From: Candidatus Woesebacteria bacterium GW2011_GWB1_33_38
GTDB taxonomy: Bacteria > Patescibacteriota > Microgenomatia > UBA8517
Length of the DNA: 64,000 bases
Assembly: GCA_000990005.1 (NCBI GenBank)
Contig: LBPF01000001.1
Location: 26,315-90,314 of the forward strand
Reading direction: 5' to 3'
Every line of letters begins with the position of its first letter. Position 1 is the first letter of the stretch. The translations under genes and the position numbers were made by a program. Under the pieces are notes generated by a model that saw only the letters and a list, made by a program, of their open reading frames with translations, was not told the DNA's origin and made no database searches. This document shows positions 5,641 through 12,343 of the stretch, piece after piece.

Positions 5641-6876
5641 ATGAACAAATATAAAAAAGTCGTAGCCTCTGCACTAGCTGCTGGATCCCTTTTAATTAAT
5701 GGATTTATGCCAGTTCTTGCTCAAACAACAATTATACTTTCAGGTAATGGAACAGGTTCTGGTAATACAGCAACTGTTGCTGTTACTCAAAGTACCTTTG
5801 TTACTCAAAGCAATAATGCAGATGTTACAAATGTAGTAAATGCTGATGCTGACACAGGAGGAAATAAAGCTAGTGATAATACAGGTGGAGATGTTTCCAT
5901 TAAAACTGGAGACTCTGATGTAACCGTTGATATAAAGAATACTTTAAATCAAAATTCAGCTAGTGTTGACTGCTGTGGCGCAACAGGAGCAGATGTACTT
6001 ATTTCAGGTAATGGATCTGATAGTGATAATACTATTGATCTGTCATTGGGAGAAGAAGACGGTATAACAGTAACTCAATCAAATAATGCCAAAGTTAATA
6101 ACAATGTCGATGTTGATTCAGAAACTGGTGATAATAAAGCAAAAGATAACACAGGTGGAGATGTAACAATTGAAACTGGAGACGCAAGTGTTGATGTTTC
6201 ATTATCAACCACAGCTAACGCAAATTCCGCCCAAATTGGTGGAGGAACGGGAGGTGCTGGTTTATTGTCAGCCCGAATATTAGGAAATGGTACAGGTAGC
6301 GATAATGATATTGACTTAGATTTTGGTGGATCACTTTGGATAAAACAGGATAATTATGCTGCTGTTAATAACAGAGTTGATGCCGATGCCGAAACTGGCG
6401 AAAACAAAGCCAACGATAACACAGGTGGGGAAGTTTCAATTGAAACAGGAGACGCCGATGTTACTGTGGGTGTTGATAATAGTGTCAACTTCAATTGGGC
6501 AGACGCAGATTGTGGATGCTTATTAGAAGATGTACTAGTTAAAATCGCTGATAATGGTAGCGATACCCAAAATGATATAACTGCAGGACTTGGACAAGGC
6601 CTTACGGTTTTCCAAGGTAATGTAGCAGGTAGTGGATTGGAAAATTTTATCGATGCTGATGCAGACACTGGAGATAATAAAGCTAAGGATAACACAGGAG
6701 ATCCTGGTAGTGATCCTTCAGTTGAAACAGGTGATGCAACAACAGAGGTAATGCTAGAGAATTCTGGCAATTCCAATGTTTATGGCGGAACCCCAGACTG
6801 GGATTTTCCAGAATTGGGTTTCGATTTCAATTTTTCGTTCGATTTGAGCGATTTATTGGGATGGATGGGGCTATAA
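5641..6876 (+). CDS. Secreted repeat protein, paralog 1 (signal peptide, alternating GNGxxSxNT and TGxNKAxDNTGGxVxIxTGDAxV repeats, CC(G) cysteine pairs)
   Basis: The signal peptide is MNKYKKVVASALAAGSLLINGFMPVLAQ. About four tandem repeat units of roughly 95 aa follow, with Cys pairs (DCCGATGA, DCGC) and an acidic Phe-rich C-terminus. I recognise no family. Confidence 0.7.
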   Translation: MNKYKKVVASALAAGSLLINGFMPVLAQTTIILSGNGTGSGNTATVAVTQSTFVTQSNNADVTNVVNADADTGGNKASDNTGGDVSIKTGDSDVTVDIKNTLNQNSASVDCCGATGADVLISGNGSDSDNTIDLSLGEEDGITVTQSNNAKVNNNVDVDSETGDNKAKDNTGGDVTIETGDASVDVSLSTTANANSAQIGGGTGGAGLLSARILGNGTGSDNDIDLDFGGSLWIKQDNYAAVNNRVDADAETGENKANDNTGGEVSIETGDADVTVGVDNSVNFNWADADCGCLLEDVLVKIADNGSDTQNDITAGLGQGLTVFQGNVAGSGLENFIDADADTGDNKAKDNTGDPGSDPSVETGDATTEVMLENSGNSNVYGGTPDWDFPELGFDFNFSFDLSDLLGWMGL

Positions 6877-6950: not shown

Positions 6951-9900
6951 ATGAAAAAAATATTAATATTAATTTTTACAATAGCAATAGTATTAGGAAA
7001 TACTGTATCTATTTTTGCGCAAGCTTTGCCTCCTACTCCACCTCCTGCACCAACTGCACCATCAGCTCCTACTCCACCTCCTGCACCAACTATGCCACCT
7101 ATTCCAACAATGATACCAACATTGGCACCAACGCCTCCACCCGTTGTGTCAACACCAACATATTCGCCAATATCTACACCTACTTCAGAATCTTTTATAA
7201 CTGAATCAACTGTTTCAGGAGGTCAGGACTCAGATGCTGGAATGGGATCAAGTTCTATTGACACAGGAGATGCAACTACAGATGGAACATTAATAGTTGA
7301 TGTAAATTCTAATCTTTCTGTAGTTTTGGGAGATTCTGGGTCGCAATCAGGGGGAAGTGCTGGAATTATCAATTCAGGAAATGGAGAGAGTTCAGAAAAT
7401 TCTGGATCAGCCGTTATTATAAATAATAATAATACAGGACAAACTAATTCAGCAAATATTGTTAACGGACTATATCAAAGTGCTATCACGGGAGATAATT
7501 CAGCCAGTAAAAATACTGGCGGAGATTCAATAATTACTACAGGAGACGCAAATGTAACGGGTACTATTATCACTTCAGTAAATACAAATGTGGCAGGAGT
7601 TGCAGTTTCAGAATTTAATGTATTGGAAGACACAACAGGAGATATTATTCTTGATTTTGGAAATACTTGTATTACAAACTGCGGATCTCTGGCTGACGCT
7701 GTAATTAAAAATACAGGTAATGGTACAGATTCAATAAATACAAGCAGTTTGGATGTTACAAATAATAATTTAACAGATCAACTAAATGATGCAATTATAG
7801 TCAATAATATGGACCTTTTTGCAGATTCAGGAAATAATGATACAAACAAAAATACAGGTGGAGATTCAATAATTACAACAGGGGATGCTAATGTCGTTGC
7901 AAATTTACTAACATTTGCTAATAACAACTTAGCAGGAAATGTTGTCTATGCAGTTGTTAATATTTTCGGAAACTTAATTGGAGATATAATTTTTCCTGAA
8001 GGGTCTTTTGCTTCCTGCTGTGGGGTTTTTGATACAGCTCTTGCTAATATCAATAATGGTACAGGTTCTACGAACACAACTTCTTATTCGAATGAGATAA
8101 CAGATTCGGCTACTCAAATCAATAATTTGGAAATTGAGAACAATTTAATATTTGATGCAAATTCTGGAGGCAATGAAACTAAAGGAAATACAGGAGGCAA
8201 TTCATCAATAGTTACTGGAGATACTAATATTGACGCTAGGCTTATTAATATTGCGAATAATAACCTTGCTGGTGGAAATTATTGGCTTGTTATAGTAAAT
8301 GAGGCAGGCAAATGGATAGGAAAGATTCTAGGGACCTCAGATGGCGCAAGTTTTGGAGGAAGTGATGACTTTGAGTTTTTGGTTGATGAAAATGGCGGAG
8401 TAACTGTAGCTAATGCTGGAAATGGTACAGATTCAACAAATACTGCCGTCTACAATGAAACTAATAACAATGAATTAACACAAGTTAATAATGCAAAAAT
8501 AGTAAATAATGTAAATCTTGAAGCTAACTCAGGGGGAAACTCAGCATCAAAAAATACTAATGGAAACTCCTCTATTGTTACTGGGGATGCAAGCATTATT
8601 GCCAATATTGTTAATTTTGTAAATAATAATATTACAGGCGGAGGAAAACTTTTTGTTGCTGTAGTTAATGTATTTGGAAGCTGGGTTGGAGATTTTGTAG
8701 GACCAGGATTTGAGCAAGAAGAACTGGCAACTAGCCCCGATTCAATCGGGATTGGAGGTGCTGATGTAAATTCACAAGAATCTGATGATAATAATGGTGG
8801 TAGCAATAGTAATCAACAAACAACTACTGTATTTCAAGCAAGTTCACCGCAGATTGCAAGCATTGTAATTCCTACAGTATTTAGAAATTCTAGTGCAAGA
8901 GTTTTGGGTAATAAAATTAGTCTTAATTTACCAGAAACTTTAGGATCAGCAATAGATGTAGCTCAAAAGAAGGTGGTTAATATCAACTTTGCTTGGCTTC
9001 TTGCAATCTTGTTTCCAATAGGAATATTCTCCATGATTTTTAGAAGAAGGTTAGCAATAAAAAGAATATTAGCATCGTTTCTTGTGTTAATGCTACTAGT
9101 ATCAAGTGTAAGACCTTTTCTTTCCTTAGCACTTGCCGAGGAAATAGTTATTTTAGGCAATGGATCAGGTTCAGATAATACTGCCGTAGTCTCAATTTCA
9201 AATACGACAACAGTAACTCAAACAAATACCGCAAGTGTCGAAAATGTTGTTACACCCTCAGTCGATACTGGAAATAATACAGTAAATGGTAATACTGGAT
9301 CAGATGTATCAGTGGTAACGGGTGATATAGATACAAATGTTGTATTAAATAATTCTCTTAATAATTCAATAGTAGAAAACTCCTGTTGTGATGCCAACGA
9401 TTCATCGGTTTTAATCACAGCAAACGGAAAGGATTCACAAAACTTAGTTACAATGGATGTTAATAATAATGTTATCAACATTACGCAGTCTGCCGATATT
9501 GGAAATAAAGTAGAGGGAAGTGCTAATACAGGAAATAATACAGCCAATAATACGAGTGGGAACGTAATAATTGATACGGGGGATATTAAAGTTATGGGGG
9601 GTATTAACAATAGTCCAATTAATACTTATTTTATAAAATCAGCAATTAATAATGGTGGATTTCTGGCATCAATTTCAGCAAACGGAACGGATTCTGTTAA
9701 TAAAATAGAAGCTAATTTAGGTGGATCAAACCAAATTGATGCAAAAAATTATTATTTAGCTTACAATTTTGTTGACTGGGATTTAAATACTGGTGGAAAT
9801 ATCGCTAATGGTAATACTGGAGGAAATGTCTTTATCAAAACTGGTAACTTTTTTTTCGATTTTTTAATTTCAAATGCTGGAAATATAGGATATGTTGATG

Positions 9901-10091
9901 TTGGCTGTTGCGGTATAGATAATCCAAATGACTCAGATGATCCTAGCGATCCAGACGATCCTGATATTCCAACTGTTGTCGGAGGTAGTAACCCTGTTTC
10001 TACAACATCAAGTAGTTCTGGATCTTCCAATGGTAGTTCCTCATCAGCAGGACCTGCGATATTAGGTCTTTCTGCGACTTCATCAGAATGA
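6951..10091 (+). CDS. Large secreted repeat protein, paralog 2 (1046 aa) with Pro-rich N-terminal region, repeat domain, internal LPETLG + TM + RRR segment, second repeat domain and acidic Ser-rich C-terminus
   Basis: After the signal peptide comes a PPTPPPAPT-rich stretch, then many NTGGxSxIxTGDAN repeats and CCG motifs. At 8928-9060 the ORF encodes LPETLG, 15 aa, a 17-aa hydrophobic segment and RRRLAIKR, then a signal-peptide-like segment and a further repeat domain. Confidence 0.7.
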   Translation: MKKILILIFTIAIVLGNTVSIFAQALPPTPPPAPTAPSAPTPPPAPTMPPIPTMIPTLAPTPPPVVSTPTYSPISTPTSESFITESTVSGGQDSDAGMGSSSIDTGDATTDGTLIVDVNSNLSVVLGDSGSQSGGSAGIINSGNGESSENSGSAVIINNNNTGQTNSANIVNGLYQSAITGDNSASKNTGGDSIITTGDANVTGTIITSVNTNVAGVAVSEFNVLEDTTGDIILDFGNTCITNCGSLADAVIKNTGNGTDSINTSSLDVTNNNLTDQLNDAIIVNNMDLFADSGNNDTNKNTGGDSIITTGDANVVANLLTFANNNLAGNVVYAVVNIFGNLIGDIIFPEGSFASCCGVFDTALANINNGTGSTNTTSYSNEITDSATQINNLEIENNLIFDANSGGNETKGNTGGNSSIVTGDTNIDARLINIANNNLAGGNYWLVIVNEAGKWIGKILGTSDGASFGGSDDFEFLVDENGGVTVANAGNGTDSTNTAVYNETNNNELTQVNNAKIVNNVNLEANSGGNSASKNTNGNSSIVTGDASIIANIVNFVNNNITGGGKLFVAVVNVFGSWVGDFVGPGFEQEELATSPDSIGIGGADVNSQESDDNNGGSNSNQQTTTVFQASSPQIASIVIPTVFRNSSARVLGNKISLNLPETLGSAIDVAQKKVVNINFAWLLAILFPIGIFSMIFRRRLAIKRILASFLVLMLLVSSVRPFLSLALAEEIVILGNGSGSDNTAVVSISNTTTVTQTNTASVENVVTPSVDTGNNTVNGNTGSDVSVVTGDIDTNVVLNNSLNNSIVENSCCDANDSSVLITANGKDSQNLVTMDVNNNVINITQSADIGNKVEGSANTGNNTANNTSGNVIIDTGDIKVMGGINNSPINTYFIKSAINNGGFLASISANGTDSVNKIEANLGGSNQIDAKNYYLAYNFVDWDLNTGGNIANGNTGGNVFIKTGNFFFDFLISNAGNIGYVDVGCCGIDNPNDSDDPSDPDDPDIPTVVGGSNPVSTTSSSSGSSNGSSSSAGPAILGLSATSSE

Positions 10092-10582
10092 AAAATAGAT
10101 TAGTCATACTATTAATAGGGTTTGCTTTGGGGTTTTTTCTTACAAGGATTGAGGCACCTGCAAATGGTTATACGATCGAAAAGTCATTTTCCAACTCATT
10201 TCCAACAAGAATTATAATACCATCTGTATCAATTGATACATCAGTCAAGAAAGCACTGATTATAAATGGTTATTGGCAAGTATTTTCAGATTCTGCAGCA
10301 TGGGGAGATCAATCAGGAATTCCAGGGCGGATTGGTAATCAAGTAATTTTTGCCCACAAAAGAAGTGGTTTATTTTTACCTCTGACAGATATTCAAATAG
10401 GCGCAAAGGTTTATGTTTTAACTAATGAAAAGTCGTATGCCTACGAAGTCAAAGAAATTAAAGATGTTAAACCATTTCAAATTGAAGTTGTGGCCCCTAC
10501 AAGCGATGAGACACTGACTCTTTACACTTGTACTGGCTTTGGTGATATTGAAAGATTGATTGTTGTAGCCAAAAAAATATAA
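10088..10582 (+). CDS. Sortase-family transpeptidase
   Basis: It has an N-terminal TM anchor, a conserved His region (IFAHKRSG) and an active-site TLYTC motif (TLxTC). It overlaps the stop of the upstream repeat protein by 4 nt (ATGA). Confidence 0.7.
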   Translation: MKNRLVILLIGFALGFFLTRIEAPANGYTIEKSFSNSFPTRIIIPSVSIDTSVKKALIINGYWQVFSDSAAWGDQSGIPGRIGNQVIFAHKRSGLFLPLTDIQIGAKVYVLTNEKSYAYEVKEIKDVKPFQIEVVAPTSDETLTLYTCTGFGDIERLIVVAKKI

Positions 10583-10608: not shown

Positions 10609-10645
10609 GAGGACCCCTTGGTTAAATCAAGGGGTTCCTCATTTT
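10609..10645. terminator. Bidirectional terminator hairpin between the sortase (+) and repeat-protein paralog 3 (-)
   Basis: GAGGACCCCTTG...CAAGGGGTTCCTC forms about a 12-bp stem with one bulge. It is followed by ATTTT on the + strand and preceded by an A/T run on the other strand. Confidence 0.5.
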
Positions 10646-11243
10646 AATTAAGAGTATTTAGGCCACCAGTGACTGTCAGATCGCTTGTTGAAGTTGATAC
10701 TCCAGTGCTAACTGTAGTTCCGGCACCCGTATTTCCATTGGCAGTATTCTTGCCTGTCTTTGCTTTGGCTTTAACTAAAGCGCTTACTCTAGTTCGTGCT
10801 CTTTGGCGAACAGTAGTGTCTTTAGTGTTAGCTACAACTATATTATTTGTTGAATTGACACCATTTCCAGATATCTCTGTTGTAGGTGGCACTGCAAGAG
10901 GAGTACAACAACAAGGATCTGTTGCTGAATTATTACCTCCTGTAACTGTCATTGTTGATGCTGCGTTGGCATCACCAGTTGTTATACCAACTGTTCCACC
11001 TGTATTTCCATTGGCAGTATTTCCACCAGTACTAGCAGAAGCTCCTATTAGTGCATCTACATTAGTATTGGCCTTTTGAGAAACTGTGCATGAGCTTGAA
11101 TTTGTTACAACTATTGTATTATCCGAACCCACGCCATTGTCAATAATCTCCAAATTAGCCCCAAATACCATTGGGACAAAGGACATCATAGCAACAGTAG
11201 CAGAAACAACACCTGTAGCTAATTTTTTTGCAAATTTGTTCAT
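10644..11243 (-). CDS. Secreted repeat protein, paralog 3 (199 aa)
   Basis: The signal peptide is MNKFAKKLATGVVSATVAMMSFVPMVFGA. The same two repeat types (GNGVxSxN and TGxNTANGNTGG) and a CCC motif are present. Confidence 0.7.
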   Translation of the reverse strand: MNKFAKKLATGVVSATVAMMSFVPMVFGANLEIIDNGVGSDNTIVVTNSSSCTVSQKANTNVDALIGASASTGGNTANGNTGGTVGITTGDANAASTMTVTGGNNSATDPCCCTPLAVPPTTEISGNGVNSTNNIVVANTKDTTVRQRARTRVSALVKAKAKTGKNTANGNTGAGTTVSTGVSTSTSDLTVTGGLNTLN

Positions 11244-11443: not shown

Positions 11444-12343
11444 ATGGAGAAATTGATTCATTTATTTATACCAAGGCAGAGTAATAATCACAAAGCTAAA
11501 ATATTGCATTCCTCTAGTTTAATTGTTATTGCGTCGTTTTTTGTTGTATTTCAGGCTTTAATTAATTTTTTACCAAGATTTGGACCAAACATATTAGGCT
11601 ATGCTTCTCAAATCTCACCTGATGAGGTAACTAGACTCACAAATCAAAAAAGGGCCGAGGCAGGTCTGTCAGCCTTAACTTACAATCAAACACTTGCTGG
11701 GGCTGCATATACCAAAGGAAGAGACATGATTGACAGAGATTATTGGGCCCATACAGCACCTGATGGAACTCAGCCATGGAAATTTTTCACAGATTTTGGT
11801 TATAGATATAAATATGCTGGAGAAAATTTGGCACGTGACTTTAGTAGTGCTCAGGCAACAGTTGATGCTTGGATGAACTCACCAACACATAGAGATAATA
11901 TTTTAAATTCTAAGTACAAGGAGATTGGAATTGGCGTGACTGAGGGTGATCTTGCAGGTATTGACACGACTATTGTTGTGCAATTTTTTGGAGCAACTTA
12001 TCAAGACAAAGTATCGGAGCCTGTGGCTCAGGTACAACAAGTAAAAACTCCAGTTCCAACTTTGGCACCAACTATTGTTCCTGTAACTACAAATCTACCA
12101 CAAGTTCAGGCTGAGATAACATCACCTCAACCAAATCAACAAGTTTTGATTTCTCCATTTAATACAACTCGTTTTGCTTCAATTGCCGTTGTATTACTTC
12201 TTTTATTTGTGTTTGTACTTGATGCATTTTTGGTTTCAAGAAGAAGAATTATTAGGGTTGCGGGAAGAACATTTGCACATGTAGCGTTTTTGGGGATGAT
12301 TTTAACTGTTATATTAATATTAAGATCAGGAAAAATACTTTAA
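11444..12343 (+). CDS. CAP/SCP/PR-1-like (YkwD-type) extracellular domain protein with N- and C-terminal TM segments
   Basis: The CAP-domain pattern is YWAHTAPDG...YAGENLARDFSSAQATVDAWMNSPTHRDNIL...EIGIGV. A hydrophobic N-terminus and a C-terminal TM with basic tail flank the domain. Confidence 0.6.
   Translation: MEKLIHLFIPRQSNNHKAKILHSSSLIVIASFFVVFQALINFLPRFGPNILGYASQISPDEVTRLTNQKRAEAGLSALTYNQTLAGAAYTKGRDMIDRDYWAHTAPDGTQPWKFFTDFGYRYKYAGENLARDFSSAQATVDAWMNSPTHRDNILNSKYKEIGIGVTEGDLAGIDTTIVVQFFGATYQDKVSEPVAQVQQVKTPVPTLAPTIVPVTTNLPQVQAEITSPQPNQQVLISPFNTTRFASIAVVLLLLFVFVLDAFLVSRRRIIRVAGRTFAHVAFLGMILTVILILRSGKIL

What the first reader, a model, noticed from the sequence alone, without database searches (positions are those of the whole stretch)
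8928..9120. Internal sorting-signal-like segment (LPETLG + hydrophobic + RRR) followed by a second signal peptide inside the 1046-aa repeat protein
Seen in sequence. In the middle of ORF 6951-10091 the protein reads ...NLPETLGSAIDVAQKKVVNINFAWLLAILFPIGIFSMIFRRRLAIKRILASFLVLMLLVSSVRPFLSLALAEE IVILGNGSGSDNT.... Established knowledge: the first part has the architecture of a sortase cell-wall sorting signal, namely an LPxT(x)G-like motif, about 15 aa, a hydrophobic stretch and a basic tail. The segment from the in-frame ATG at 9033 (MIFRRRLAIKR...SLALA|EE) also looks like a classical signal peptide. The mature start IVILGNGSGSDNTAVV mirrors paralog 1 (ILSGNGTGSGNTATV). An AGGAA lies 9 nt upstream of that ATG. 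Inference: either two adjacent paralog genes (a sorted protein of about 690 aa and a secreted paralog of about 350 aa) are fused by loss of a stop, or one polyprotein is processed by both sortase and signal peptidase, or there is an internal translation start. Any of these would be unusual.
Basis: partly seen in the sequence, partly recalled or inferred. Interest (0 to 1): 0.7.

Follow-up and report, generated by a model that had tools for sequence, protein, structure and literature searches.

The report
Two surface-protein genes fused in frame
The odd internal "anchor plus second signal peptide" marks the seam where two neighbouring surface-protein genes of an uncultured groundwater bacterium (Woesebacteria) fused into one; the sortase recognition motif most likely lies at the very end of the protein, not at LPETLG.

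Summary
ORF 6951-10091 (1046 aa) contains LPETLG, a hydrophobic helix, RRR, then a signal-peptide-like stretch ending ALA|EE. A sortase gene (10088-10582) overlaps its stop codon.

Comparison explains it. More than 190 relatives have two genes here. Gene A (about 700-800 aa) ends with a conserved tail: KKxx(I/V)NLAW, a short helix, then K/R. Gene B (about 340-410 aa) starts with a signal peptide. A sortase gene follows. In the closest split relatives, the A stop and the B start overlap by 8 nt. In the window and two other genomes (66-67% identical to it), a one-base frame change joined A and B, and B's ATG was lost.

The internal segment is therefore A's membrane anchor plus B's signal peptide, which I predict forms a helical hairpin. 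The identical ORF occurs on 12 contigs, so it is not an assembly error.

LPETLG lies in a variable linker and is not conserved (0 LPxTG and 1 LPxTxG in 189 relatives). The likely sortase motif is B's C-terminal L(P/S)xT(G/S), whose type co-varies 58/58 with sortase subtype. In this clade it is LSATSSE at the extreme C-terminus, with the usual helix and basic tail lost. That truncation is the most unusual feature.

Whether signal peptidase or sortase cleaves the protein is inferred, not shown. Interest is moderate.

The parts
5641..6876 (+). Paralog 1 (411 aa). It has a signal peptide and N/G/T-rich repeats, and ends in a hydrophobic C-terminus (...FDFNFSFDLSDLLGWMGL) with no LPXTG-like motif. 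It is the first gene of the conserved cluster.
   Evidence: The same position is occupied by a 411-aa gene in L001 and a 428-aa gene in L003. Relatives with the same type of C-terminus appear (P0170, P0197, P0205, P0210, P0212...).
6951..10091 (+). Fused A-B gene (1046 aa). It corresponds to gene A (about 700-800 aa in relatives) plus gene B (about 340-410 aa in relatives).
   Evidence: The identical protein (P0241) is found on 12 contigs.
6951..7019 (+). N-terminal signal peptide of the A part (MKKILILIFTIAIVLGNTVSIFA|QA), followed by a Pro-rich linker.
   Evidence: Read from the sequence. It aligns with the N-termini of P0002, P0004, P0005 and P0007. Cleavage is inferred.
8928..8945 (+). LPETLG (aa 660-665). 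It lies in the variable Ser/Gly/Ala-rich linker of the A part and is probably not a sorting motif.
   Evidence: The 25 positions upstream of the xNLAW motif show no conservation. LPxTG occurs in 0 of 189 related linkers and LPxTxG in 1 of 189 (P0002 only). P0003, which is also fused, reads KLATSEVLG here.
8967..8996 (+). Conserved membrane-proximal motif KKVVNINFAW of family A (consensus KK-x-(V/I)-x-(I/V)-N-L-A-W).
   Evidence: Among 116 homologues, N is present in 116, A in 114 and W/Y in 113. The motif was found only in family A among 5651 ORFs of the fetched loci.
8988..9041 (+). TM1 (F680-F697). In almost all relatives this is the C-terminal membrane helix of gene A.
   Evidence: in relatives the protein ends 24-40 aa after the start of the motif.
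9042..9065 (+). Basic loop RRRLAIKR (five positive charges). RRR is the basic tail of A. LAIKR is the former positively charged N-terminal region of B's signal peptide. The fusion junction lies between them.
   Evidence: DNA comparison. Split L001 reads AGAAGAAGA-TCAC-ATG-CTT-AAA-CGA and split L005 reads AGAAGAAGA-AAAC-ATG-TTT-AAA-AAA. The fused window reads AGAAGAAGG-TTA-GCA-ATA-AAA-AGA. No stop codon and no ATG/GTG/TTG remains at the ancestral start.
9066..9137 (+). TM2, the former signal peptide of gene B. It has a hydrophobic core (ILASFLVLMLLVSSV) and a cleavage region (RPFLSLALA). The predicted signal peptidase I site is A729|E730, between 9137 and 9138.
   Evidence: It is homologous to the N-terminal signal peptides of stand-alone B proteins, such as MLKRLFILTLLPAVFLFYVGPFIPYVVA|QE and MFKKIVFLALLPIIFIFNISPFISLVFA|EE. 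Small residues at positions -3 and -1 are kept in all three fused proteins. Cleavage itself is inferred.
9138..10049 (+). Extracellular domain of the B part. It has three N/G/T-rich repeats, each containing a CC pair, and is predicted to be a beta-solenoid, followed by an Asp/Pro- and Ser-rich linker.
10050..10088 (+). C-terminal GPAILGLSATSSE. This is a truncated sortase sorting signal: the LSATS motif (10068-10082) is kept, but the membrane helix and basic tail are absent.
   Evidence: It aligns with (I/L)GLSxTS(S/G)+helix+K/R tails and with LPxTG+helix+RLRSGRSP tails of B homologues. The LPXTG-anchor model TIGR01167 hits the LPATG form. The motif type co-varies 58/58 with sortase subtype. 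GP(A/Q)ILGLSATSS(E/K) is conserved in five genomes next to a hypervariable linker.
10088..10582 (+). Sortase (164 aa) with an N-terminal membrane helix. The sequence contains FAHKRS and TLYTC, positions that in sortases hold the catalytic His and Cys. Its start overlaps the stop codon of the fused gene (ATGA).
   Evidence: PF04203, E = 1e-19. TIGR01076 sortase family 41.4 bits, above its 39.35-bit cut-off; no class-specific model reaches its cut-off. It is the only sortase in the 64-kb window. Alignment.
10644..11243 (-). A third, short paralog (199 aa) on the opposite strand, with a signal peptide, two repeats and no anchor. It keeps its position in related loci.
   Evidence: The same position and strand are seen in L001 (199 aa), L002 (198 aa) and L004 (partial).

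Best explanation
The segment is the seam of a lineage-specific in-frame fusion of two adjacent genes. Both belong to a conserved sortase-linked surface-protein cluster of Microgenomates/Woesebacteria.

Shown:
- The ancestral arrangement is gene A, gene B, then a sortase.
- Gene A has a signal peptide, a large repeat ectodomain, and a C-terminal anchor of KKxx(I/V)NLAW, a short helix and K/R.
- Gene B has a signal peptide, three repeats, and a C-terminal L(P/S)xT(G/S) sorting signal.
- In the nearest split relatives, the A stop overlaps the B start by 8 nt.
- In the window lineage, a one-base frame change between A's RRR codons and B's ATG joined the two frames, and the ATG was then lost.
- LPETLG-...-TM1-RRR is therefore A's ordinary anchor, with a non-conserved LPET in its variable linker. 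LAIKR-TM2-ALA|EE is B's former signal peptide.

Inferred mechanism:
- The N-terminal signal peptide exports the A domain.
- TM1 stops transfer across the membrane.
- The loop, with five positive charges, stays in the cytoplasm.
- TM2 re-initiates export of the B domain. Both repeat domains end up outside, joined by a helical hairpin.
- The signal-peptidase site (small residues at -3 and -1, Pro at -8) is kept in all three fused genomes. I therefore think cleavage after A729 is somewhat more likely than not (about 0.5-0.6). Cleavage would yield the same mature B as in split genomes, plus an A protein carrying one extra helix. The fusion would then be nearly neutral.
- The sortase encoded next door is expected to act on the C-terminal LSAT|SSE of the B part, not on LPETLG.
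For: - Most homologues stop at the anchor. 117 of the 120 best hits to the whole protein are 598-796 aa and end at xNLAW-helix-K/R. All 120 best hits to the second part are stand-alone proteins with N-terminal signal peptides.
- Synteny with two genes is seen in L001 (411 / 733 / 343 / sortase 164 / 199(-) / CAP domain), which matches the window's gene order, and in L003.
- None of 80 species-representative loci is fused. The A/B spacing ranges from -14 to +237 nt, and overlaps of -4, -8 and -11 are common.
- The junction DNA shows the frame change and loss of the start codon.
- The fusion is shared by P0002/L004 and P0003/L002, which are 66-67% identical to the window over ungapped A+B columns. 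They come from other samples and carry the same RRRLAIK(R/K)I linker.
- The identical 1046-aa ORF occurs on 12 contigs, with four NCBI accessions listed.
- The sortase is adjacent, and a sortase lies about 1.0-1.4 kb downstream of the A stop in most loci.
- The motif at the end of the protein just upstream of the sortase co-varies with sortase subtype with no exceptions. LPxTG goes with the AHS(S/T)-plus-insertion type in 34 of 34 loci. LSxT(S/G) or LAxT goes with the AHxR type in 24 of 24.
- LPETLG is not conserved.
Against: - No experiment exists. Membrane topology, signal-peptidase cleavage and sortase cleavage are all inferred.
- AlphaFold2 drew the TM1/TM2 region as helices 679-687 and 691-724 at low confidence, not as a hairpin. 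This says little, because no membrane is modelled.
- The trees do not resolve whether the three fused genomes form one group. Support is 53% on the A tail, and the B part groups the window with split L005 at 68%. One fusion event is inferred mainly from the identical linker.
- LPET(L/V)G is shared by the window and P0002, and a priori it is unlikely to arise by chance at that place (P about 0.0013). A lineage-specific role cannot be excluded.
- Co-variation of motif and sortase subtype is confounded by shared ancestry.
Confidence: 0.8

Rival explanations
1. The fusion is real, but TM2 is not cleaved. The product is one polypeptide with two extracellular repeat domains held together by a permanent two-helix membrane hairpin.
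For: The hairpin geometry obeys the positive-inside rule: RRRLAIKR carries five positive charges between two hydrophobic stretches. The split relatives L001 and L005 have a Pro inside the hydrophobic core (LLP), whereas the three fused proteins have none, which could make TM2 a more stable helix. In a clade that has lost B's C-terminal helix, an uncleaved TM2 would keep B at the membrane.
Against: The cleavage region (Pro at -8, small residues at -3 and -1, acidic +1/+2) is retained in all three fused proteins exactly as in cleavable stand-alone B signal peptides. The hydrophobic core is only 15 residues, which is typical of signal peptides rather than membrane anchors.
Confidence: 0.3
2. LPETLG plus TM1 plus RRR is a working sortase sorting signal in this lineage. 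The sortase would cleave after T663 and attach the A domain to the cell wall.
For: The layout of motif, helix and basic tail is present, with a sortase next door. LPET(L/V)G is shared with P0002. Chance expectation at that position is low (P about 0.0013).
Against: The motif has Leu, not Gly or Ser, after the Thr, whereas the motifs that pair with these sortases are L(P/S/A)xT(G/S/A). It is absent from the third fused genome (P0003) and from both nearest split relatives. LPxTG occurs in 0 of 189 related linkers, which equals the shuffle expectation. TIGR01167 gives no hit even at E up to 10. The 15-aa spacer contains the truly conserved KKxxINxAW motif, which has no Thr.
Confidence: 0.05
3. 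The B part is also, or mainly, made separately by internal translation initiation at ATG 9033 (M695). This would give MIFRRRLAIKR...ALA|EE as an ordinary signal peptide.
For: From M695 onward the sequence has an ideal signal-peptide layout of a positively charged start, a hydrophobic core and a cleavage region. The ATG is present in all three fused genes. AGGAA lies 8 nt upstream.
Against: The Shine-Dalgarno argument is void in this genome. 52 of 54 real starts lack such a motif, and it precedes 11 of 275 internal ATGs. The AGGA comes from the conserved Pro-Ile-Gly codons of TM1. M695 also occurs in split relatives, where it is only a helix residue (L005, L011, L016, P0005, P0008). B's ancestral start codon has been lost in all three fused genes, which suggests that separate initiation was no longer needed.
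Confidence: 0.1
4. The long ORF is an artefact (a single-base sequencing or assembly error) or a decaying pseudogene.
For: One base is enough to join the two frames. One GenBank contig (KKP56263.1 / P0001) has an unrelated 41-aa 5' end, which shows that assemblies of this repeat-rich gene can be imperfect.
Against: The identical 1046-aa protein is found on 12 contigs across NCBI, JGI, ENA and Logan, with four NCBI accessions listed. Two other genomes, 66-67% identical over ungapped A+B columns, have the same in-frame junction. No stop codon or frameshift occurs anywhere in 3.1 kb, and both halves keep all family-invariant residues.
Confidence: 0.02

Closest known systems
Sortase-dependent surface-protein and pilus loci of Gram-positive bacteria (LPXTG cell-wall sorting signal, TIGR01167; sortase PF04203). 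Comparison from established knowledge.
   Same: A membrane-anchored sortase gene lies directly next to its presumed substrate. In most relatives, gene B carries a textbook three-part signal of LPxTG, a helix and a basic tail. Sortase was already reported as near-ubiquitous in Microgenomates (PMC6744442).
   Different: The substrates are N/G/T-rich beta-solenoid-like repeats, not Ig-like pilin domains. A large sub-group uses LSxT(S/G) with a different sortase subtype. In the window clade the signal is reduced to the motif at the extreme C-terminus. The substrate is fused behind another membrane-anchored paralog.
Class E sortases and their LAXTG substrates (Actinobacteria). Comparison from established knowledge.
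   Same: They offer a precedent for a non-Pro residue at position 2 of the motif. The class E model gives a weak hit to the window sortase (NF033747, E = 3.5e-10). Some loci here do use LAxT(S/G/A).
   Different: The score is far below the class E cut-off (40 versus 160 bits). No class-specific model reaches its cut-off. Ser at both position 2 and the position after Thr is, to my knowledge, not a described specificity.
Internal signal sequences cleaved by signal peptidase in multi-domain precursors, such as flavivirus polyproteins and engineered bacterial leader-peptidase substrates. Comparison from established knowledge.
   Same: A stop-transfer helix, a basic cytoplasmic loop and a signal-like helix with an AxA site form the layout that allows signal peptidase to cut a precursor into two exported products.
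   Different: Here the layout arose by accidental fusion of two complete bacterial secretory proteins, and cleavage has not been tested.
Beta-solenoid fibre and surface-layer proteins: curli CsgA, FapC, RsaA.
   Different: There is no sequence homology. The rmsd is high and TM-scores are low. The export and anchoring logic differs, using Sec plus sortase rather than the curli or Fap machinery.
Pam pili of Candidate Phyla Radiation (CPR) bacteria (bioRxiv 10.64898/2026.03.03.709456).
   Same: It is a CPR-specific surface-filament operon that is also found in Microgenomatia. Its components have signal peptides, and some have C-terminal membrane helices.
   Different: Pam pilins are Ig-like and assemble by donor-strand exchange with chaperone-like proteins, and no sortase is involved. 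The proteins here are predicted beta-solenoids. No sequence comparison was possible because the Pam sequences are not held.

Membership tests
Sortase cell-wall sorting signal (for the internal segment 8928-9050) | LPXTG-type pentapeptide conserved among orthologues | tested here: not met
   The motif is LPETLG, with the Gly displaced by one residue. In 189 other family-A linkers, LPxTG occurs 0 times and LPxTxG once. The linker positions are unconserved. P0003 reads LATSEVLG.
Sortase cell-wall sorting signal (for the internal segment 8928-9050) | Match to the LPXTG-anchor profile TIGR01167 | tested here: not met
   No hit at E up to 10 for the window segment or for a second family-A tail. A gene-B LPATG tail scored 20.1 bits against a 15.9-bit cut-off.
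Sortase cell-wall sorting signal (for the internal segment 8928-9050) | Hydrophobic helix followed by a positively charged tail | tested here: met
   F680-F697 followed by RRR. This feature is conserved family-wide.
Sortase cell-wall sorting signal (for the internal segment 8928-9050) | Located at the C-terminus of the precursor | tested here: not met
   In the window, 346 residues follow RRR. In split relatives the tail is C-terminal.
Sortase cell-wall sorting signal (for the internal segment 8928-9050) | Cleavage by a sortase | not testable with these tools
   This needs an in vitro peptide assay or proteomics.
Sortase cell-wall sorting signal (for the C-terminus 10050-10088) | Motif homologous to LPXTG and paired with a cognate sortase | tested here: met
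   LSATS aligns with the LSxTS and LPxTG tails of B homologues. Motif type and sortase subtype co-vary 58/58. The sortase gene overlaps the stop codon.
Sortase cell-wall sorting signal (for the C-terminus 10050-10088) | Helix and basic tail after the motif | tested here: not met
   The protein ends two residues after LSATS. Other loci have 27-57 residues after the motif. The same truncation is seen in L001, L002, L004 and L005.
Sec signal peptide cleaved by signal peptidase I (for 9051-9137) | Basic N-terminal region, hydrophobic core of about 15 residues, and a cleavage region with small residues at -3 and -1 | tested here: met
   The sequence is LAIKR / ILASFLVLMLLVSSV / RPFLSLALA|EE. It is homologous to the N-terminal signal peptides of 120 stand-alone B proteins.
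Sec signal peptide cleaved by signal peptidase I (for 9051-9137) | Located at the N-terminus of the translated protein | tested here: not met
   It is internal (aa 701-729). The ancestral start codon is replaced by TTA-GCA-ATA.
Sec signal peptide cleaved by signal peptidase I (for 9051-9137) | Actual cleavage | not testable with these tools
   This needs N-terminal proteomics or heterologous expression.
Fusion of adjacent genes | Orthologous loci carry two separate genes in the same order and orientation | tested here: met
   L001, L003 and L005. All 80 species-representative loci are split.
Fusion of adjacent genes | In-frame junction without a stop codon, reproducible in independent assemblies and in other genomes | tested here: met
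Sortase (PF04203) for ORF 10088-10582 | Sortase domain profile above the curated cut-off, plus sequence motifs at the positions that hold the catalytic His and Cys | tested here: met
   PF04203 scores 71 bits against a 26.6-bit cut-off. TIGR01076 scores 41.4 against 39.35. FAHKRS and TLYTC are conserved in the alignment. Their catalytic role is assumed from established knowledge of sortases, not tested.
Named sortase classes A-F | Class-specific NCBIfam model above its cut-off | tested here: not met
   The best class models score 34-40 bits against cut-offs of 140-166.

The most novel reading that the evidence does not exclude
In this Woesebacteria clade, the sortase substrate has lost the helix and basic tail that normally hold a substrate in the membrane for the sortase. 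It nevertheless keeps a strictly conserved GP(A/Q)ILGLSATSS(E/K) at its extreme C-terminus. Membrane retention would instead come from the N-terminal side: from an uncleaved signal peptide or, in the window lineage, from the hairpin created by fusion to protein A. That would be a sortase substrate with an inverted retention logic and a three-residue leaving group. The fusion would then be adaptive rather than neutral.
Probability: 0.15. Interest if true: 0.7.

Novelty: new variant of a known kind. Interest (0 to 1): 0.4.

Why it matters
The flagged feature has an ordinary cause, a gene fusion, so it does not point to new processing chemistry at LPETLG. The work does expose an uncharacterised gene cluster that is widely conserved in Microgenomates. 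The cluster holds three paralogous beta-solenoid-like surface proteins, each with a different C-terminal ending, plus a dedicated sortase.

- It gives sequence-level predictions for two sortase specificities in CPR bacteria: LPxTG, and LSxT(S/G).
- It identifies a clade in which the sorting signal is cut down to the bare motif.

CPR cell envelopes and surface appendages are almost unstudied, and these bacteria are thought to live attached to other cells. These proteins are therefore plausible major envelope or fibre components. The fused and truncated variants are natural experiments on what a sortase substrate minimally needs.

Tried and rejected
- Pfam and NCBIfam scans gave nothing for the fused protein or for paralog 1 and the 199-aa minus-strand paralog. 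Only the sortase and a CAP domain protein were recognised.
- NCBIfam scans of the isolated tails at E up to 10 found no known C-terminal sorting-domain model for the xNLAW tail, the LSxTS tail or the tail of paralog 1.
- A PDB sequence-profile search gave only one insignificant hit. Foldseek against the PDB gave nothing at E <= 0.001.
- The AlphaFold2 model was uninformative about the hairpin.
- I considered the Pam pilus of CPR bacteria as an identity for these proteins. I set it aside because its fold and assembly differ and it involves no sortase.
- I tested whether the Shine-Dalgarno-like AGGAA supports an internal start. It does not.
- I tested whether the xNLAW tail is a general sorting tag shared by other protein families in the neighbourhood. 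It is not: 78 of 79 occurrences are in family A.
- Trees built to show a single origin of the fusion did not resolve it.
- I checked whether the sortase's N-terminal helix might derive from B's lost helix. The alignment gives no support for this.
- Literature searches found no description of this protein family.
Full report
**1. Observation**

ORF 6951-10091 (+ strand, 1046 aa) reads ...NLPETLGSAIDVAQKKVVNINFAWLLAILFPIGIFSMIFRRRLAIKRILASFLVLMLLVSSVRPFLSLALAEEIVILGNGSGSDNT....

- LPETLG is aa 660-665 (8928-8945).
- The first hydrophobic stretch is F680-F697.
- RRR is aa 698-700 (9042-9050).
- The in-frame ATG is at 9033 (M695).
- The ALA|EE junction is A729|E730.

This makes the sortase question concrete. 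No Pfam or NCBIfam model hits the long protein or its paralogs.

**2. What relatives look like**

I searched with the whole protein. Of the 120 best hits, 117 are 598-796 aa long and cover only the first 48-69% of the query. They all end at the same place. The ending is a conserved motif, KK-x-(V/I)-x-(I/V)-N-L-A-W, followed by about 14 hydrophobic residues with a Pro at +10, then K/R-K/R-R/K and a short tail. Among 116 homologues N is invariant, A is present in 114 and W/Y in 113. I call this family A.

I then searched with the second part, from M695 onward. It returned 120 stand-alone proteins, mostly of about 340-430 aa (range 325-506). Each starts with a normal signal peptide ending ...A|(E/Q)E(I/L)xISGNG. 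I call this family B. A minority of these hits belong to the paralog-1 type, with a different C-terminus.

The two halves of the window protein are therefore normally two separate proteins. The internal segment equals A's C-terminal anchor followed by B's N-terminal signal peptide.

**3. Synteny and the junction**

Locus L001 holds P0004, which is 64-65% identical to the window protein. Its gene order is 411 aa / 733 aa / 343 aa / sortase 164 aa / 199 aa (minus strand) / CAP domain. The window has the same order except that the 733-aa and 343-aa genes are one.

In L001 and L005 the two genes overlap by 8 nt: AGA AGA AGA TCA C-ATG-CT-TAA-A... and AGA AGA AGA AAA C-ATG-TT-TAA-A.... The window reads AGA AGA AGG TTA GCA ATA AAA AGA. 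L004 reads AGA AGA AGA TTA GCA ATC AAA AAG. L002 reads AGA AGA AGA CTC GCT ATC AAG AAA.

Three things follow from this comparison.

- The spacer between RRR and B's start changed frame by one base.
- The stop codon is no longer in frame.
- No ATG, GTG or TTG remains at the ancestral start position.

The residues LAIKR-ILASF... correspond to B's M-(L/F)-K-(R/K)-(L/I)-(F/V)... in the split genomes.

A scan of one genome per species returned 80 related loci. None is fused. The A/B spacing ranges from -14 to +237 nt, and overlaps of 4, 8 or 11 nt are common. Such overlaps make a one-base fusion easy.

**4. Not an artefact**

- The identical 1046-aa protein (P0241) is recorded on 12 contigs from NCBI, JGI, ENA and Logan. 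Four NCBI accessions from Candidatus Woesebacteria GW2011 bins are listed.
- Two other organisms carry the same in-frame junction and the same RRRLAIK(R/K)I linker. They are L004 (a Logan assembly) and L002 (GCA_964355505.1). Each is 66-67% identical to the window over ungapped A+B columns.
- Both halves retain all family-invariant residues.

**5. LPETLG**

The 25 positions upstream of the xNLAW motif are unconserved Ser/Gly/Ala-rich linker. Among 189 other family-A linkers, LPxTG occurs 0 times and LPxTxG once, in P0002 (LPETVG). These counts match shuffle expectation. The third fused protein reads KLATSEVLG at this place, and the nearest split relatives have nothing similar. The LPXTG-anchor profile TIGR01167 does not hit the segment.

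In the window protein alone the motif is unlikely by chance at that spot (P about 0.0013). A lineage-specific role therefore cannot be strictly excluded, but nothing supports one.

**6. The likely sortase signal**

Family-B proteins end with one of two signals. One is LPxTG plus a helix plus ...RLRSGRSP; TIGR01167 hits an example at 20.1 bits against a 15.9-bit cut-off. The other is (I/L)GLSxTS(S/G) plus a helix plus a Lys-rich tail.

A sortase lies about 1.0-1.4 kb downstream of the A stop in most loci, directly after B. Sortases fall into two sequence types.

- Type I has ...FAH(A/K)R(E/S)GLF....
- Type II has ...FAHSS... with a 9-residue insertion after the His, the position of the catalytic residue in sortases.

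The motif at the end of the protein just upstream matches the sortase type without exception. LPxTG goes with type II in 34 of 34 loci. LSxT(S/G) or LAxT goes with type I in 24 of 24. Shared ancestry confounds this result. It is still what co-evolution of enzyme and substrate would predict.

The window's sortase is type I. The only ORF in the 64-kb window that has such a motif near its C-terminus is the fused protein, which ends ...GPAILGLSATSSE.

**7. An unexpected feature**

In nearly all other loci with a recognisable motif, 27-57 residues (a helix and a basic tail) follow it. One other exception is L080, with a degenerate LAYTN and 19 non-hydrophobic residues. In the window, L001, L002, L004 and L005, the protein stops two residues after LSATS. 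These five form a clade with 100% bootstrap support. GP(A/Q)ILGLSATSS(E/K) is almost invariant among them, although it sits next to a hypervariable Ser/Gly/Asp/Pro linker. This suggests the bare motif is still under selection.

All natural sortase substrates known to me have the helix and tail, which hold the precursor in the membrane for the enzyme (established knowledge). How retention works here is open. Three of the five genomes in this clade carry the fusion, which ties B to a membrane hairpin. This is the basis of the more novel reading given separately. The two unfused members show that the fusion is not required.

**8. Mechanism**

Shown:

- The identity of each element.
- The fusion event.
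- Conservation of the signal-peptidase-type cleavage region in all three fused proteins: SLALA|EE, QTVFA|EE and TAVLA|QE.

Inferred:

- Export of A by its N-terminal signal peptide.
- TM1 acting as a stop-transfer helix.
- The RRRLAIKR loop (five positive charges) staying inside the cell.
- TM2 re-initiating export of B.
- Probable cleavage after A729.
- Sortase action at LSAT|SSE.

If cleavage occurs, the products equal those of split genomes apart from one extra helix on A. That would make the fusion nearly neutral and would explain its persistence.

Internal initiation at ATG 9033 is possible but unsupported. 52 of 54 ordinary starts in this window have no Shine-Dalgarno motif, and such motifs precede 11 of 275 internal ATGs. 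The AGGA comes from the conserved Pro-Ile-Gly codons. M695 also exists in split relatives.

**9. What the proteins are**

The cluster therefore most likely encodes beta-solenoid-like surface or fibre proteins with three different endings.

- Paralog 1 has a hydrophobic FxFxF...L..W-type end.
- A has the xNLAW anchor, found only in family A (78 of 79 occurrences).
- B has the sortase signal.

Sortase was already reported as near-ubiquitous in Microgenomates (PMC6744442). I found no description of this protein family. The recently described Pam pili of CPR bacteria are built differently.

**10. Verdict**

The sortase-signal reading of LPETLG is not supported, and the internal-start argument is empty.

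The feature is a new variant within a known kind of system, a sortase plus its substrate locus. The interest lies less in the seam itself than in three other things:

- the uncharacterised, widely conserved CPR cluster;
- the predicted LSxT(S/G) specificity;
- the truncated sorting signal.

Noticed in passing
window 10050-10088; also L001 11188-11226 and the C-termini of the long genes in L002, L004 and L005: The sortase motif of the B part sits at the extreme C-terminus (GP(A/Q)ILGLSATSS(E/K)*), with the usual helix and basic tail missing. It is nevertheless nearly invariant in five genomes. Almost all other loci have 27-57 residues after the motif.
   Followed up: partly
loci L001-L085, sortase genes about 1.0-1.4 kb downstream of the gene A stop: There are two sortase sequence types: AHxR, and AHS(S/T) with a 9-residue insertion. 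They pair without exception (58/58) with LSxT(S/G)/LAxT and LPxTG tails, respectively, on the upstream protein. This predicts two specificities in Microgenomates.
   Followed up: partly
window 8967-9050 and the C-termini of about 190 homologues: Family A has a strongly conserved C-terminal element: KKxx(I/V)NLAW, a helix of about 14 residues with a Pro, then K/R. It has no match among known C-terminal sorting-domain models and was found only in this family. Its role (plain anchor or processing signal) is unknown.
   Followed up: partly
window 5641-6876 (paralog 1), C-terminus: Paralog 1 and its relatives (P0170, P0197, P0205, P0210, P0212, P0215...) end in a conserved hydrophobic/aromatic tail (...FDFNFSFDLSDLLGWMGL). 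It has no basic cluster and no LPXTG-like motif. This is a third type of ending in the same cluster.
   Followed up: no
GenBank KKP56263.1 (P0001) compared with window 6951-7709: The partial GenBank protein from contig UR48_C0037 is identical to the window protein from aa 253 onward. Its first 41 residues (TTTPTTTTPTTPTVVYKADFIITNEVWSW...) occur nowhere in the window. It is probably a chimeric contig end or a strain variant within the repeat region.
   Followed up: partly
whole window, gene starts: 52 of 54 first-ATG starts of ORFs of at least 150 aa have no Shine-Dalgarno-like motif within 4-16 nt upstream. This organism seems to make little use of such sites, so these motifs cannot be used to call starts here.
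   Followed up: partly
L014 and L081 (gene A homologues of 812 and 839 aa): Two family-A homologues lack the xNLAW tail. They end with a different basic-plus-hydrophobic tail (...RLRVAYYTRQIKSRLANRRAGGVFMGSLIAATVYLLNRVS).
   Followed up: no
L024, L028, L042, L047, L048, L050, L053, L063, L076: In several Gottesmanbacteria, Amesbacteria and related loci, the protein between gene A and the sortase is only about 190-240 aa. Where a motif was recognised (L047, L048, L063, L076; also the short B found in L028), it is LAxT(S/G/A) or LSATA. The sortase is longer (204-293 aa).
   Followed up: no
window 11444-12343: A CAP/SCP-domain protein (PF00188, E = 1.5e-21) with N- and C-terminal hydrophobic segments lies just after the cluster. 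It keeps this position in L001, and a CAP gene is also present further downstream in L002.
   Followed up: no
L001 4538-5068; also L028, L049, L050, L063, L079: Some genomes carry a second sortase gene about 5-9 kb upstream of gene A. The 64-kb window has only one sortase.
   Followed up: no
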